Assembly: GCA_963737155.1 (NCBI GenBank)
Contig: CAVTRN010000002.1
Span: 1,248,001-1,312,000 of the forward strand
Source of the DNA: Nitrospirota bacterium
GTDB lineage: Bacteria > Nitrospirota > UBA9217
Direction: 5' to 3'
Length of the DNA: 64,000 bases
The notes beneath the pieces were generated by a model that was not told the origin of the DNA, ran no database searches, and saw nothing but the letters and a program-made list of their open reading frames with translations. A program made the position numbers and the translations under genes. The first letter of the stretch is position 1. Each line of letters opens with the position of its first letter. Below are positions 8,925 through 13,185 of this stretch, piece after piece.

Positions 8925-9130
8925 CGTCAAGTATTTATTTTGATGATTCCTTTCTGAATCGCGAACTTGATCAATCCGTCCGCGCGAGTATCCTCAGTCT
9001 TTTTTCGAAGTCCGTATGGTGGACGATGACCGTTTTGACGATGATGTTGAGCATATTTATCGTATCCACGTGCTTATACCTCATCTGCTACGATCGTGGT
9101 CTCCCTGTTTTCCCGCGAGCAGACATGCTG
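8925..9130 (-). pseudogene. Decayed NarL/LuxR-family response regulator, C-terminal HTH remnant
   Basis: Minus-strand frames give NMLNIIVKTVIVH and, after a frameshift, GLIKFAIQKGII*, matching the LuxR HTH pattern; several frameshifts and stops. Confidence 0.65.
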
Positions 9131-9499
9131 CGACAACTCCGTTGCTATTGTCGAGTAGAATGATCCTCGTACGATCGCCCTTGATCTCCGCTATTATGTT
9201 TTTCCCCGAGTCTTTCTTGCGTCACGTTTCTGCGTTGCGCGATTCCAATGTATAGCCGAGCATCGGTACCATTTCCTTGGAAAGAAAAATCTAGCCGATA
9301 GAACCATCGGGATATGGAACAGATGTTGACAGGCACGACACCACATATTTTGATGGCGAGCCGCCTGCTGTTGTTAAAAAAGCGTCCCGATCTGGAACAG
9401 CAGAAAGGACAAATGATCATTAGTATACTACTCTCAACAAAGACGATTGAACACGCTAACGGCACTGAAATCCAAAAAATGACTGTTGGCGGTAATGCA

Positions 9500-9600
9500 T
9501 TAGTTGATAACGGTCAAGACATCGTGGAGATTTTATGTTCATGAATTCATGGACTCCTATATTTTACTTGATATCAGCATGGGTACAGGGAAAGGTTTTT
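9500..9600 (+). pseudogene. Possible receiver-domain remnant
   Basis: VDNGQDIVE followed by ILLDISMGTGKGF resembles the REC phospho-acceptor region (LLDISMPxxxG); reading frame broken. Confidence 0.35.
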
Positions 9601-9781
9601 AACCGCATCAGCATTAGGCGAAATCGTCTTTACCCCTTGCATGCTGCCGTATTAAATAGTAGCGATTCCACGATTTTGTGACCATTTTTTGTGTCCACGT
9701 TGTCCTGAACTTTGTCAAGTAGTAAATAACGATGTCTGGATATGTGAGACTGCTGTTGCAGTAGGCAGTTTTGTGTTATCG

Positions 9782-9862
9782 TCCGGGGTAGGGGCCGCGT
9801 GAGCAAATCCTTCTCGTACGGATCTGTGCGGGGATGTCTGGGACCGGATGTTCTGCCGCGAT
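9782..9862 (+). ncRNA. Degenerate group II intron 3' end (domains V-VI)
   Basis: GGGCCGCGTGAGCAAATCCTTCTCGTACGGATCTGTGCGGGG...CGGATGTTCTGCCGCGAT resembles bacterial DV-DVI (GAGCCGTATGCG-GNAA-...CGTACGGATCTGTGCGGGG...CCTACCGCGAC). Confidence 0.6.
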
Positions 9863-9926
9863 CAAGATATAGTCTGTTTGTTACCACAAAAAGACTTCGT
9901 GAATGCTCCCGCAACCAAAGATAAGG

Positions 9927-11928
9927 CTATTGATTGGGGCTTCCAACAAGAAGATTCCCAGAGGATTGTCTGTCTCTTGGAAGAAGCAGTGTCACTTGCT
10001 TCGCGATATTCGGACGAAGCAAAATGTAATTACCAATTGTATCCGCAGCGTGCGAGTCTGCGTGTTCCTTGGCGCCGCAGCGCGGACAGAAAAATGTTTC
10101 CCCATTGCGCATACTGGCATCGACCAGGGAATGGACGGTACAGCAAGAGGATGTGTGGTAGCTTGGGATAACTATCTCCGGGATACCATCCCATTGCAGT
10201 TTATCCGACGCTCTTCGTATATACTGTCCTTTTGAACCGTTATTGATCATCTTGTTAAAGGTTCGGCCCTTGTAGCCTGGATTGTTTTTCTCCCTGGCAA
10301 GGATAGAAAGATCTTCCCGTACGATTGCCGCATGGTACTTCCTTGCAAGAATTGCTTCCTGGTTGGACAGGTACCCGAACCACGATTTTTTAACCCCCGC
10401 GATTTTCTTATAGAGGGACAAGCGTTTTTTCTTCATCTCGACGAGGTGATGAAGCAGCCGGAAGAACTTTTTATGGATATGCCGTATATAGGGGTCACCA
10501 AGATCCTGTCCCTCGGCAAATTGCTCCCGTTCGTCCAGCCCCAGGTATCCACAAATGATGCCTTTAAGCTTGTTCAGATTATTGTAGCCGGTGTCTATCT
10601 GCGACTTCAGCTTTTCGATACGTTTGCAGGAATCATTGATGTTCCGGAGAAAACCGCGGCCGTTGAAGCGGATGCGTTCCACGACGTTGTCATTGGGATG
10701 GCTGTAATTTTTCAGATACTCGAGAGCCTCTCCCCGGGTAAACTCGCTGATCCGCTTAAGTTTCTTCTCATCGATCTGATCATCTATCCTTATCACGGAA
10801 AGGCTGGCGGTATTGACCATGCCAAAGTCACGCCCGATGATATGCGTAAGAGTGCCGATATCGGCCGTCCCGGCCGGCTTGGAAATGATTGCCCGGACCA
10901 GGACCGAATCAGGGTTAATGACCAGGGAAAGCGAGGATACCGACGAAAGCTTGTCAAATCGTTTGAGCGTCCGTGCGGACATGACCACCGGTATCCGAAC
11001 AGGTTTCCCGTGCGGAGCCGGGTTGGATATTTCGAGAAAATGATAATATTTGCGGTTCGTTCTGTCTACCAGAAGCCTGGCGATATTGTCCATCCGGGCC
11101 ACAGGGTCCGAGTCGTTCCGGATGACCCGGTAATCCAGGTTGATCTGGCAGGCAAAACGGTCGTCACTGCCGAAGACGGGCTTGAGGCTTGCCGTATTTC
11201 GCAAGGCACTCCCTGTGAATGGCGCGGACGATCATTGCTTCATTTCCGGTGAGCCCCTTGCTGCTTTTCCGTATGACAACCTGCCTGACCAAGTCGATGG
11301 TCTTCCCGTATCCGTAATTTTTTATAAAACAGTCCTGAAATACCCAGCAGCTTGCTGCTGGGATGAAAAGGACATCCTGGCGAAGCCAGGATAAGTCTTC
11401 AGCTTCTTTGTTGTGCTTTTTTAAGGTTTCAAGTTCCGATGCCCCGCAGCTTGCTGCGGGGTAATTCACTTTACGTTCAAGAGATTCAAGGATACTTGCT
11501 GTAACCTTGTCCTGGATCGTTTCAGGAATGCTCAGGTACTGCCTTTTTGCGGGGTCCTTTTCCTCTGTTTTTGCGGCACAGTTTAGAAGCCTGCCGTAAA
11601 GACGCTTGAAGTATTTTTGTTCCACTTGGGCGATGGCGGGAGGGACGGCGAGACGCGCTTTTTCCACATATGCTTTGTTGAAACCAATCTCCATGTTTTT
11701 CTGGAGAGCGGTCAGAACAGCATGGATGTCCTCGCCGTTTCTTGTGCTTGCGAGAGGTTCGGGAAGGAACGCCGCATCCACAAACGAATTCGCAGCGGCA
11801 AGAAACTTTCTGCGAATAACCAGGAGATCGCCCATCTTGCCGGCCGTCAGCATGCCAGTGTCCAGCGTGGTTTTTCCGCTGGGAATGGAGCGCCTGAACA
11901 CATTTTTATCCCCTTTGCCGTAGGCCAT
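9927..11928 (-). pseudogene. tnpB: Long TnpB-like RuvC nuclease (about 616 aa reconstructed), split by a 7-bp duplication and carrying a 144-bp insertion
   Basis: RuvC-I GRDFG, RuvC-II REDL, Zn ribbon CCTVH...CPRC, RuvC-III HADSHAA; the two ORFs join as YGKP-VFGSDD when one copy of the GGCTTG-A-GGCTTG repeat (11179-11191) is removed; ATG overlaps the tnpA stop (TAATG). Confidence 0.85.
11326..11469 (+). mobile_element. 144-bp non-autonomous IS200/IS605-type mini-element (PATE-like) nested in tnpB
   Basis: Begins after TTAT; left hairpin CCCAGCAGCTTGCTGCTGGG framed by GTCCT/AGGAC; right hairpin CCCCGCAGCTTGCTGCGGGG followed by TAATTCAC; no target duplication; removal restores ERK-IKNY. Confidence 0.8.
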
Positions 11929-12323
11929 TAATTTCCTTGCCCTTCAAGGTATTTTTGTATGACTTCAAGCGGCGCTCCGCCAGCGGTAACAACAAAGTAG
12001 CTTGCCGCCCAAAACTTTTCCTTCCACAATTTTTCTTTGATGCCGGGAAATTCTTTTTTGAGCAAACGGGATGTAACGGTTTTCAGGGAATTGATAAGAC
12101 GGCACAAATTGAATTCCGGCGGAGCGGACAACAGGATATGTATATGGTCAGGTTCACCGTTTGCTTCCACGATTTTTGCCTTGAAATCCGTGGCGATATC
12201 TCCTGCTATTTCCAAACACCGGCGAAGTACGGGTTCCGTAAGCACCTTTCTGCGATATGCAACCACTAGAACCAAGTGGTAGTTCAGACTAAAAACACTA
12301 TGATGTTAGTAAGTTAATTCCAT
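11928..12323 (-). pseudogene. tnpA: IS200-type Y1 HUH transposase with a premature stop at codon 6
   Basis: Reads MELTY*HHSVFSLNYHLVLVVAYRRKVL; HUH motif DHIHIL, LKTVTSR, FWAASYF, catalytic Tyr in IQKYLEGQ; TAA at 12306-12308. Confidence 0.88.
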
Positions 12324-12330
12324 TCAACCA

Positions 12331-12359
12331 AACATAGCATCCTCTGATGGAAATGTCAA
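12331..12359 (-). promoter_or_regulatory. Sigma70-type promoter of tnpA inside the IS left end
   Basis: TTGACA-17 nt-TATGTT with extended -10 TG, 7 nt before the ATG. Confidence 0.6.
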
Positions 12360-12543
12360 CTGTTTTTCAATCGACTTCCCAATTCATCCCGCAACCAATA
12401 CGTAGTTTGGATGGGGTGTTCTTGGACAGATGATAAATAAATAGGCGTAAAAGATGAATCATGGTGAAACGGGAGGACATTTGCCTTATAATAGTTCATC
12501 GGCGCGCTTAAGAGATTGACGGGGCGAGCAAGGGAGGCCGAAC

Positions 12544-13185
12544 ATAACTGAATATTTTGACGTTCTAGACTGTAGGGGTAAGAAAACCGGGGAAATCATT
12601 CCGCGCGATGAGGCGCACCGAAACGGCACATGGCATGGAGCCTTTCATTGTCTCCTCTTCTCCCAGCGCGGCGGTCGGGCTTATGGCCTGTTCCAGAAGC
12701 GGTCCCTGTCTAAAAAAATTGCACCGGGAAAGTTTGACGTAAGCGTGGGCGGTCATTATTCAGCAGGGGAGGATGCAGCAGTCGCCGGGCCACGGGAGAT
12801 ACAAGAAGAGCTCGGTATTGACGTTCGTTTCAGCGACCTTCTGTCCGTTGGTCGTAGGATCCTTATTTATTGTTTTACCCCTGGTTTAATGGAGTATGAA
12901 TTCCAGGACGTGTTTCTATTGCATCACGACATTCAGCCGAAGCAGTTCACGCTTCAGCGTGAGGAACTTGATGGAACAATTGAGTTGGACGTGGAGCAGG
13001 GCATAGAACTGTTCTCGGGCAAAATACTCCGCGCCCAAGTCCATTTTACAAAAACTGGTGGCGATACGGTCCCGATTTCAATTACGGTTGATGACTTCGT
13101 ACCCTGCCTCGATAACTACTATTTGAAATTACTCCTGCTCGTACGGCGATATATGAATGCTGATCGGGAACATTTGCTGATCTGA
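12544..13185 (+). CDS. NUDIX hydrolase, IPP-isomerase-like; probable ATA start
   Basis: Open frame from ATA 12544 (after GGGAGG): EYFDVLD...RDEAHRNGTWH...QKRS...GGHYSAGE...REIQEELG; in-frame TGA at 12517 upstream. Confidence 0.8.
   Translation: MTEYFDVLDCRGKKTGEIIPRDEAHRNGTWHGAFHCLLFSQRGGRAYGLFQKRSLSKKIAPGKFDVSVGGHYSAGEDAAVAGPREIQEELGIDVRFSDLLSVGRRILIYCFTPGLMEYEFQDVFLLHHDIQPKQFTLQREELDGTIELDVEQGIELFSGKILRAQVHFTKTGGDTVPISITVDDFVPCLDNYYLKLLLLVRRYMNADREHLLI

What the first reader, a model, noticed from the sequence alone, without database searches (positions are those of the whole stretch)
11326..11469. Mini-element nested in tnpB exactly in frame and stop-free (48 codons)
Seen: a 144-bp unit made of a left-end hairpin, an internal perfect hairpin (ATCCTGGC-GAA-GCCAGGAT) and a right-end hairpin ending TTCAC. 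It sits 3' of TTAT with no target duplication, opposite to the host IS, and adds VNYPAASCG...QDCF between ERK and IKNY. Its hairpin sequences differ from those of the host IS. Inference: a non-autonomous peel-and-paste element mobilised by another TnpA. Its antisense-open, 3n length could let it enter genes without truncating them, seeding YPAASCG-type peptide insertions.
Basis: partly seen in the sequence, partly recalled or inferred. Interest (0 to 1): 0.7.

Follow-up and report, generated by a model that had tools for sequence, protein, structure and literature searches.

The report
Miniature IS200-type hitchhiker inside tnpB
A 144-base mobile mini-element that borrows the transposase of a tiny IS200-type insertion sequence has landed inside an already broken transposon gene, and its being readable in frame there looks like luck rather than design.

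Summary
Window 11326..11469 is a discrete 144-bp insertion with three perfect hairpins. A second copy of the host IS605-type element in the same genome lacks exactly these 144 bp, with no duplication. The genome has 23 full-length copies (19 identical), each in different flanks, each 3' of TTTAT and followed by T.

I found the autonomous partner: a 550-bp IS200-type element. It has 9 copies, 7 of them with an intact 140-aa Y1 transposase. Its ends are about 90% identical to those of the unit and it uses the same target. [quoted passage not shown] So this is a PATE/MITE-type non-autonomous IS200/IS605 element, which is a known kind.

The "built to enter genes" idea is weakly supported at best:
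- The in-frame read-through is real, but this tnpB is also frameshifted by a 7-bp insertion.
- Only 1 of the 23 copies is clearly intragenic.
- Sister subfamilies are 137, 145 and 147 bp long, and most have stops in every frame.
- Searches of billions of proteins found only two full-length peptide footprints.

One of those two is notable. In a related genome a 141-bp sister copy sits in frame inside a conserved small gene.

The parts
11321..11325 (+). Target / left cleavage site TTTAT, immediately 5' of the unit. It is not part of the insert.
   Evidence: TTTAT precedes 23 of 23 full copies, 9 of 9 copies of the 550-bp IS and 24 of 25 copies from relatives. It is retained in the empty site of host-IS copy 2.
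11326..11469 (+). The 144-bp non-autonomous IS200/IS605-type mini-element (PATE/MITE-like), top strand on +.
   Evidence: Exact 144-bp gap in the paralogous host IS and in metagenome contigs. 23 full-length copies in different flanks.
11338..11342 (+). Putative left guide AAATA, directly 5' of the foot of the left hairpin. Position by position it pairs with TTTAT, in the same listing as IS608 AAAG/TTAC.
   Evidence: Read from the sequence. The IS608 rule comes from PMC3201880 passages. The pairing here is inferred.
11343..11362 (+). Left subterminal hairpin (9-bp perfect stem, 2-nt loop), 17 nt from the left cleavage site.
11374..11392 (+). Inner left-end hairpin ATCCTGGC-GAA-GCCAGGAT. It is kept in the 550-bp IS through a compensatory change (GGC/GCC to GAC/GTC). 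On the bottom strand it is followed by TCCTTTTCAT and looks like an intrinsic terminator.
   Evidence: A group II intron that sits after terminator-like hairpins used it as a target in another copy.
11393..11438 (+). 46-nt central filler (unit positions 68-113) with no similarity to the 550-bp IS.
   Evidence: Only unit 14-67 and 114-137 align to the IS.
11442..11461 (+). Right subterminal hairpin (9-bp perfect stem, 2-nt loop).
11462..11469 (+). Right tail TAATTCAC. The right cleavage site lies 8 nt 3' of the hairpin foot.
   Evidence: Flanks diverge immediately after CAC in all 23 copies.
11470..11470 (+). T of the target (TTTAT^T). It is present in the empty site, so it is not part of the element.
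   Evidence: T follows 23 of 23 unit copies, 9 of 9 IS copies and 25 of 25 relatives' copies. The empty site reads TTTTTAT|TTTACG.
9927..11928 (-). Host tnpB (TnpB/Cas12f-like, 615 aa when intact). Here it is interrupted by the unit and is also frameshifted.
   Evidence: PF07282 E = 1.3e-7. The intact paralogue is shown.
11179..11185 (.). 7-bp insertion relative to host-IS copy 2. It shifts the tnpB frame.
   Evidence: A metagenome contig also lacks these 7 bp.
11928..12275 (-). Host tnpA (Y1 transposase), 31% identical to the TnpA of the 550-bp IS.
   Evidence: PF01797 E = 5e-36. Comparison.
9898..12440 (-). Approximate extent of the host IS605-type element (tnpA + tnpB). Its right end reads ...GGTTGCGGGAGCATTCAC.
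   Evidence: Limits of similarity among the three genomic copies.

Best explanation
The 144-bp unit is a non-coding miniature derivative of the IS200/IS605 family (PATE/MITE type). It keeps only what a Y1 (HUH) transposase needs in cis: a left end with a subterminal hairpin 17 nt from the cleavage site plus an inner hairpin, and a right end with a near-identical hairpin 8 nt from the cleavage site. It is moved in trans by the 140-aa TnpA of a 550-bp IS200-type element in the same genome, whose ends are about 90% identical. Inferred from the IS608 paradigm: the top strand is excised as a single-stranded circle and pasted 3' of TTTAT (followed by T) into single-stranded DNA of the lagging-strand template, without duplication. 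The copy in the window landed on a TTTAT^T site on the antisense strand of the tnpB of an unrelated IS605-type element. On the gene strand the target reads A|ATAAA and here lies in phase 0 (ATA AAA = Ile-Lys). This subfamily happens to be 3n long with that one frame open, so the ORF reads through and gains 48 residues. This is a by-product, not a function. The gene is also frameshifted 140 bp downstream, and the element's survivors are otherwise almost all intergenic.
For: Shown here:
(1) Exact empty site in a paralogue, with no duplication.
(2) 23 full copies in unrelated flanks, 19 of them 100% identical, which indicates a recent burst. TTTAT precedes 23 of 23 and T follows 23 of 23.
(3) Autonomous partner with 9 copies. 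Its left end is 91% identical over 67 nt and its right end 90% over 31 nt. It has the same TTTAT...T context in 9 of 9 copies. Its TnpA matches PF01797 at E = 1.5e-45 and is intact in 7 of 9 copies. It is only 31% identical to the host IS TnpA.
(4) Strand polarity. With the origin and terminus taken beforehand from the cumulative GC-skew extremes, 29 of 35 family members have the top strand on the G-rich strand, binomial p = 1.2e-4. The target motif itself is unbiased, 2356 against 2235.
(5) End asymmetry of 17 nt against 8 nt mirrors IS608's 19 against 10. The 5 nt before the left hairpin (AAATA) match TTTAT in the same listing as IS608 AAAG/TTAC (PMC3201880 passages).
(6) The family is present in 15 of 24 other genomes of the same taxonomic family and in 0 of 16 from other families of the phylum, with the same target.
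(7) Copies are depleted from ORFs. 6 of 23 reconstituted sites have any spanning ORF of at least 90 codons, against 2858 of 4591 (62%) of all TTTATT sites, p = 7e-4.
Lagging-strand targeting of the family is stated in PMC5027513 passages. PATEs as IS605-derived transposase-free elements are described in PMC3119063 passages and in bioRxiv 10.1101/2023.03.14.532601 passages.
Against: Mobilisation by this particular TnpA is inferred from matching ends and target and was not shown. The ends differ by about 10%, and the right guide/cleavage pair of the unit (CGATG/TTCAC) pairs less well than that of the IS (AAATG/TTTAC). The central 46 nt have no counterpart in the IS, so the unit is not a simple deletion derivative of the present IS. 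6 of 35 copies break the strand rule, although 3 of these lie within 75 kb of the skew-inferred terminus. Metagenome contigs that lack the 144 bp may simply be the empty paralogue and do not show excision.
Confidence: 0.9

Rival explanations
1. The element is shaped by selection to be coding-compatible, like Rickettsia palindromic elements. On this view the 3n length and a stop-free antisense frame are maintained so that insertions into genes are tolerated and add a peptide module.
For: Two subfamilies are 3n long with minus frame 0 open: 144 bp here, and 141 bp in 3 of 3 representatives from three genomes. A 141-bp copy lies in frame in a conserved small gene of G014. The annotated protein P0002 has 154 aa, while 7 homologues of 104-109 aa lack the 47 residues. 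Of the 4 clearly or probably intragenic copies seen (the window tnpB, L033, L041, L059), 2 are in the single read-through configuration. In the own genome, disruptive intragenic copies are missing while one read-through copy persists.
Against: The most numerous subfamily examined is 137 bp (16 of the 25 relatives' copies) and has stops in all six frames. The 145-bp variants (own and G011) and the 147-bp variant are not coding-compatible. The peptides of the 144- and 141-bp forms share only about 10 C-terminal residues, so no peptide is conserved. An open frame is expected by chance in 41% of shuffles. The read-through configuration makes up 21% of intragenic TTTATT sites, so 2 of 4 has P = 0.20. 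The window example lies in a gene that is frameshifted anyway. The 48-aa peptide found only the window's own ORF in 5.8 billion clustered proteins and in 1.84 billion representatives. The 47-aa peptide found one full-length carrier. On the gene strand the unit carries a terminator-like hairpin.
Confidence: 0.07
2. The unit is a REP/BIME-type structural repeat served by a domesticated single-copy REP-associated Y1 transposase (RAYT), not a true IS/mini-IS pair.
For: The hairpins resemble REPs in size, most copies are intergenic, and a Y1 enzyme is involved.
Against: The cognate Y1 gene is itself bracketed by the same two ends. It is present in 9 dispersed copies with the same target and shows the same strand bias, which is the behaviour of an IS200 rather than of a RAYT. 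The unit has asymmetric left and right ends and a defined insertion site, with exact empty sites.
Confidence: 0.02
3. The 48 residues are a native, lineage-specific insertion of this TnpB, and the hairpins are incidental.
For: Reading is uninterrupted through the segment.
Against: The 97-98% identical paralogue lacks exactly these 144 bp. The identical 144 bp occur at 18 other places at 100% identity, outside any tnpB.
Confidence: 0.01

Closest known systems
PATEs (palindrome-associated transposable elements) / IS200/IS605-derived mini-elements, as described in Haloquadratum walsbyi (PMC3119063) and Geobacillus stearothermophilus (bioRxiv 10.1101/2023.03.14.532601)
   Same: No transposase gene, no terminal inverted repeats, near-terminal palindromes like those of a resident IS200/IS605 element, a short conserved targeting oligonucleotide 5' of the element, no target duplication, homogeneous high-identity bursts, and frequent insertion into other mobile elements.
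   Different: Here the partner is a tnpA-only IS200-type element of 550 bp rather than a tnpB-carrying IS605/IS1341 type. The unit carries no recognisable omega-RNA. The core is unrelated filler rather than a repeat-mediated core deletion.
IS608 (Helicobacter pylori), the mechanistic paradigm of peel-and-paste transposition (PMC3201880, PMC5027513)
   Same: Subterminal hairpins, with the left cleavage site far from its hairpin and the right one near (19 and 10 nt in IS608, 17 and 8 nt here). The target equals the left cleavage site. A guide lies 5' of the hairpin foot. There is no duplication, and orientation is tied to the lagging-strand template.
   Different: Target TTTAT^T instead of TTAC. 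No tnpB in the partner IS. Nothing was tested biochemically here.
Rickettsia palindromic elements (RPEs) and other intragenic MITEs such as ERIC (review PMC10969869, passages)
   Same: A palindromic element of about 150 bp that can sit in frame inside a protein-coding gene and add a peptide. Two such cases were seen here.
   Different: RPEs are reported to be in genes in nearly half of cases and to carry a conserved peptide ORF. Here 1 of 23 own copies and 1 of 25 relatives' copies are read-through, most subfamilies have no open frame, and the transposition chemistry (Y1, single strand) and the partner are identifiable.
REP/BIME with RAYT (TnpA_REP) (PMC3333891 and PMC8266576, search listings only)
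   Same: Hairpin repeats handled by a Y1 HUH enzyme related to IS200 TnpA.
   Different: The Y1 gene here is multi-copy and mobile with its own ends. The unit has distinct left and right ends and a fixed target.

Membership tests
Non-autonomous IS200/IS605 element (PATE type) | Subterminal hairpins at both ends and no terminal inverted repeats | tested here: met
   Perfect 9-bp stems at 11343-11362 and 11442-11461. Single-stranded DNA fold z = -4.2. The two hairpins are direct repeats of each other, 87% over 23 nt.
Non-autonomous IS200/IS605 element (PATE type) | Insertion 3' of a fixed tetra- or pentanucleotide, without target duplication | tested here: met
   TTTAT precedes 23 of 23 copies. 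The exact empty site is in the paralogue and in contigs of 2 runs.
Non-autonomous IS200/IS605 element (PATE type) | Too short to encode a transposase | tested here: met
   The unit is 144 bp. Its only open frame is a 48-codon antisense read-through with no start codon of its own.
Non-autonomous IS200/IS605 element (PATE type) | A resident autonomous element with matching ends that encodes a Y1 (HUH) TnpA | tested here: met
   550-bp element with 9 copies. Left end 91% over 67 nt, right end 90% over 31 nt. PF01797 E = 1.5e-45. 7 of 9 ORFs are intact.
Non-autonomous IS200/IS605 element (PATE type) | Left/right asymmetry, and a guide 5' of the hairpin that matches the cleavage site | tested here: inconclusive
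   The 17 against 8 nt asymmetry and the AAATA/TTTAT match at the left end fit the IS608 rule. The right pair of the unit (CGATG/TTCAC) matches at only 2 of 5 positions plus one G-T. The IS608 right guide is recalled from memory and was not seen in a call.
Non-autonomous IS200/IS605 element (PATE type) | [quoted passage not shown] | tested here: met
   29 of 35 members, p = 1.2e-4, with origin and terminus fixed from GC skew beforehand.
Non-autonomous IS200/IS605 element (PATE type) | Excision and integration of the unit by the partner TnpA in trans | not testable with these tools
   Needs an excision or mating-out assay.
RPE-like protein-coding palindromic element | A conserved open frame and peptide across the element family | tested here: not met
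   The 137-bp, 147-bp and two 145-bp representatives have stops in every full-length compatible frame. The 144- and 141-bp peptides share only the last ~10 residues.
RPE-like protein-coding palindromic element | A large share of copies inserted in frame in genes | tested here: not met
   1 of 23 own copies and 1 of 25 relatives' copies. Protein searches gave two full-length carriers in all.
REP/BIME with RAYT | A single-copy domesticated Y1 gene flanked by REPs, not itself mobile | tested here: not met
   The Y1 gene occurs in 9 dispersed copies, each between one left end and one right end.

The most novel reading that the evidence does not exclude
Some subfamilies of this IS200-derived mini-element (144 and 141 bp) are kept at 3n length with an open antisense frame. 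Copies that land in phase 0 of ATA-AAN codons then survive inside genes and add roughly 47-residue peptide modules. That would be an RPE-like route of protein innovation in free-living soil bacteria, driven by a single-strand Y1 transposase whose target (TTTAT^T) fixes the phase. The in-frame copy inside a conserved 105-aa protein family in a related genome would be the first fixed example.
Probability: 0.08. Interest if true: 0.55.

Novelty: new member of a known kind. Interest (0 to 1): 0.3.

Why it matters
This is a clean, fully resolved example of a mini-element and its IS200-type driver. It has an exact empty site, a defined 6-nt target context, a recent burst of 19 identical copies and a replication-linked strand bias. 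That makes it useful for annotation, because these 144-bp units and the 550-bp IS will otherwise be called as odd ORFs or missed. It is also useful as a natural test set for single-strand transposition. It warns that a protein such as the 254-aa ORF here, or the 154-aa P0002 in a relative, can owe a third of its length to a mobile hairpin element. It does not open a new mechanism. In-frame MITE insertions and IS605-derived PATEs are both in print.

Tried and rejected
- Native TnpB insertion: rejected by the empty paralogue.
- Ambiguity of the boundaries (145 bp including the following T): rejected. The empty site keeps that T, and the first and last bases of the insert differ from their neighbours.
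- Second in-frame case in the own genome at C1:991887 (antisense, phase 0, 161-codon stop-to-stop frame): the flanking translation looks non-coding and the protein search returned no such protein. It was not counted as a gene.
- Spanning ORFs at C2:1155847 and C1:562848: the unit lies upstream of or at the start of the gene, not inside it.
- L059: the reconstituted 219-codon frame has no Pfam support (one weak hit below cut-off), so I call it only a probable gene.
- Rfam on window 9000-13000 gave nothing relevant, only one sub-threshold riboswitch match.
- Promoter scan of 11200-11600: none found.
- Expression: no RNA holder was listed among the sequencing runs, so nothing can be said about it.
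- The laid contigs show the host IS without the unit in 2 runs of 2 studies. This may be the paralogous empty copy or a related strain, so I do not use it as evidence of excision. Parts without cover are not interpreted.
- P0013 (3386 aa, 33% identity over 27 residues) was treated as a chance or low-complexity match and not followed.
- tblastn of the G014 small protein against the own genome found only the element-derived part. The homologues came from the protein database instead.
- Supplementary tables of PMC3119063 (PATE ends and targets) were not opened. They may hold closer analogues.
- Literature searches run. I did not search specifically for this bacterial group or for a named IS, so I make no claim that this particular element is unpublished.
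Full report
**What is there.** Window 11326..11469 is a 144-bp block with three perfect hairpins:
- 11343-11362, CCCAGCAGC-TT-GCTGCTGGG
- 11374-11392, ATCCTGGC-GAA-GCCAGGAT
- 11442-11461, CCCCGCAGC-TT-GCTGCGGGG

It is preceded by TTTAT and ends in TAATTCAC. The terminal-hairpin motif occurs nowhere else in the 64-kb window, and there were 0 matches in 100 shuffles. As single-stranded DNA the block folds far better than its shuffles (-30.8 kcal/mol, z = -4.2).

The block lies inside an IS605-type element on the minus strand. That element has tnpA at 11928..12275 (PF01797, E = 5e-36). Its tnpB is split into ORFs 11164..11928 and 9927..11204, and the latter matches the Cas12f1-like TNB domain PF07282 at E = 1.3e-7. 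Only minus-strand frame 0 of the block is stop-free. The 254-aa ORF reads through it as VNYPAASCG...QDCF.

**It is an insertion, exactly 144 bp, without duplication.** The genome that holds the window is G000: 4.84 Mb in 2 contigs, with the window at C2:1248001-1312000. It has a second, 97-98% identical copy of the host element at C2:538238-540624, which is contiguous across the site. That copy encodes an uninterrupted 615-aa TnpB reading ...ESLERK|IKNYGYGK....

A base-by-base alignment shows two indels in tnpB of the window copy: the 144-bp block and a separate 7-bp insertion at 11179-11185 that shifts the frame. A third copy of the host element (C2:812613-814304) has an internal deletion. 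Copy 2 has a 2-bp deletion in tnpA.

**It is a mobile family.** blastn against the genome gives 23 full-length copies: 19 at 100%, 2 at 99.3%, and one each at 92.5% and 90.4%. All sit in unrelated flanks. All 23 are preceded by TTTAT and all 23 are followed by T. The T is target and not element, because the empty site reads TTTTTAT|TTTACG. One further copy is split by a 690-bp insertion (see side observations), and two copies of about 81% identity also exist.

**The driver.** Partial hits to unit positions 1-67 and 114-144, about 550 bp apart, led to nine copies of a 550-bp element. Its features:
- It begins AAAAAACATCC... right after TTTAT.
- It ends ...GGGGTTATTTAC and is followed by T in 9 of 9 copies.
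- It has the same two terminal hairpins and the same inner hairpin. The inner hairpin is kept through a compensatory GGC/GCC to GAC/GTC change.
- It holds a single gene for a 140-aa Y1 transposase (PF01797, E = 1.5e-45), which is intact in 7 of 9 copies.
- That TnpA is only 31% identical to the TnpA of the host IS605-type element.

The unit's middle 46 nt have no counterpart in the IS.

**Mechanistic fit.** From passages of PMC3201880, IS608 is cut 3' of TTAC, 19 nt 5' of the left hairpin, and 10 nt 3' of the right hairpin. The cleavage sites are read by 4-nt guides just 5' of each hairpin foot (left guide AAAG). The target equals the left cleavage site.

Here the distances are 17 and 8 nt. 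The 5 nt before the left hairpin are AAATA, which match TTTAT position by position in the same listing as AAAG/TTAC. In the IS, the right pair AAATG/TTTAC matches at all five positions. In the unit, the right pair CGATG/TTCAC matches less well. These pairings are read from the sequence and interpreted by analogy.

The family is reported to insert into the lagging-strand template (PMC5027513 passages). I fixed the origin (C1:765,315) and terminus (C2:1,960,538) from the cumulative GC-skew extremes. On that basis:
- 19 of 23 units, 2 of 3 variants and 8 of 9 IS copies have the top strand on the G-rich strand. That is 29 of 35, p = 1.2e-4.
- 3 of the 6 exceptions lie within 75 kb of the inferred terminus.
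- The TTTATT motif itself is unbiased, 2356 against 2235.

The window copy obeys the rule.

**Distribution.** The family is found in 15 of 24 other genomes of the same taxonomic family and in 0 of 16 genomes from ten other families of the phylum (these genomes are a sample and many are incomplete). I fetched 25 copies from four relatives, a subset of the hits listed. Of these, 24 follow TTTAT and 25 are followed by T. Their lengths are 137 bp (16 copies), 141 bp (6), 145 bp (2) and 147 bp (1).

**Is it built to live in genes?** Evidence for:
- The 144-bp and 141-bp forms are 3n long with minus frame 0 open.
- One 141-bp copy in G014 (locus L033) sits antisense, in phase 0, inside a small gene. 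The deposited protein P0002 has 154 aa. Seven homologues of 104-109 aa align on both sides and lack the 47 residues, with the junction at ...GK|IN....

Evidence against:
- The commonest subfamily examined (137 bp) and the 145- and 147-bp forms are not coding-compatible.
- The two open-frame peptides share only their last ~10 residues.
- 41% of shuffles of the unit have some open frame.
- In the own genome only the window copy is clearly intragenic. Just 6 of 23 reconstituted sites have any spanning frame of at least 90 codons, against 62% (2858 of 4591) of all TTTATT sites, p = 7e-4.
- Other intragenic copies do damage. L041 cuts a GT87 glycosyltransferase ORF 88 codons before its end, and L059 splits a probable ORF.
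- Because the target read on the gene strand is A|ATAAA, one antisense phase would be a TAA stop and cannot occur in a gene. The read-through configuration makes up 21% (396 of 1879) of intragenic TTTATT sites. Seeing it in 2 of 4 intragenic copies has P = 0.20.
- The 48-aa peptide retrieves only the window's own ORF from 5.8 billion clustered proteins. From 1.84 billion representatives it retrieves that ORF, a 42-aa fragment and one dubious match.
- The 47-aa peptide retrieves P0002 and three gene calls that merely start in the antisense left end of an IS copy.
- On the gene strand the inner hairpin followed by TCCTTTTCAT is scored terminator-like.

I therefore read the in-frame state as a tolerated accident that purifying selection lets through more easily than disruptive insertions. 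I do not read it as a designed property.

**What is known.** Transposase-free IS605-derived elements with near-terminal palindromes, a 4-5-nt targeting oligonucleotide, no duplication, homogeneous bursts and a habit of landing in other mobile elements were named PATEs in Haloquadratum (PMC3119063 passages). They were seen again in Geobacillus (bioRxiv 10.1101/2023.03.14.532601 passages). In-frame MITE insertions are reviewed for RPEs and ERIC in PMC10969869 (passages). This case is a new, well-resolved member of that kind.

**Side observations.**
- The split unit copy at C2:1595534-1596367 is interrupted between unit positions 36 and 37 by a 690-bp ORF-less group II intron (Rfam RF02001 at 145.7 bits, RF01998, RF00029).
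- All three intron copies I looked at lie immediately after a hairpin plus T-run. In the unit that hairpin is the inner hairpin read on the bottom strand.
- Contigs of soil-metagenome runs carry the host IS without the 144 bp (2 runs of 2 studies), and one also lacks the 7 bp. They also show the unit in other flanks and with the intron. These may be paralogues or related strains, so they show presence only.

**Verdict.** The main interpretation is confirmed and extended: the driver IS, the target TTTAT^T, the strand bias and the recent burst were all found. The gene-entry speculation is not supported as a rule, although one striking in-frame example exists in a relative. The finding is ordinary in kind, clean in detail and of modest interest.

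Noticed in passing
G000:C2:657548-658097 and 8 other places (none in the window; the nearest is G000:C2:1327851-1328398): The autonomous partner is an IS200-type element of only 550 bp: tnpA of 140 aa between about 90 bp of left end and 40 bp of right end. It has 9 copies, 7 with an intact ORF. From memory, IS200-group elements are usually listed at about 600-750 bp, so this would be unusually compact. I did not check that against ISfinder.
   Followed up: partly
G000:C2:1595642-1596331 (locus L023 1609-2298); also G000:C1:364819-365508 and a partial copy at C2:456985-457471: A 690-bp ORF-less group II intron (Rfam RF02001, RF01998, RF00029) has inserted into a copy of the 144-bp unit. All three copies looked at sit directly after a hairpin plus T-run, i.e. 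terminator-like sites. From memory, bacterial class C introns behave this way. The unit's inner hairpin, read on the bottom strand, served as such a site.
   Followed up: partly
window 9898-12440 (-): The host IS605-type element encodes an unusually long TnpB-like protein: 615 aa in the intact paralogue at G000:C2:538238-540624. Its first ~250 residues have no Pfam match, and only a weak TNB-domain hit follows. The element also appears to sit after TTTAT and to end in ...GCATTCAC, like the unit, although its hairpins differ. All three copies are damaged in a different way: a 7-bp insertion plus the unit in tnpB here, a 2-bp deletion in tnpA in copy 2, and an internal deletion in copy 3.
   Followed up: partly
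G000:C2:814393-814536: Another identical unit copy lies 89 bp outside the left end of host-IS copy 3. So 2 of 23 units are in or next to the three copies of this one IS. This could be chance, or a shared liking for the same AT-rich neighbourhoods.
   Followed up: no
G000:C1:562848-562991 (locus L018 1501-1644): This unit copy ends 1 nt before the ATG of a 439-aa T3SS/flagellar-type ATPase ORF (PF00006 E = 3e-87, PF18269). It has therefore displaced whatever ribosome-binding site stood there.
   Followed up: partly
L033 1497-1637 (G014:C20): A 141-bp sister element sits in frame inside a conserved hypothetical small protein. The deposited protein is 154 aa, while seven homologues of 104-109 aa lack the 47 residues. 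No Pfam family matches.
   Followed up: yes
L041 1501-1641 (G001:C9): A 141-bp sister element truncates a GT87-family glycosyltransferase ORF 88 codons before its end.
   Followed up: partly
proteins P0011, P0012 (metagenome contigs): These gene calls begin inside the antisense left end of an IS copy (MA.IVTDSYPDFVRMSFSSQQQSCWVFQDDFI) and run in frame into the interrupted flanking gene, a Z1-domain protein in P0012. They are annotation artefacts created by the open antisense frame of the left end.
   Followed up: no
G000, contigs C1 and C2: GC skew places an origin-like minimum at C1:765,315 and a terminus-like maximum at C2:1,960,538. The skew runs on across the contig ends, so the two contigs behave as one replicon.
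   Followed up: partly
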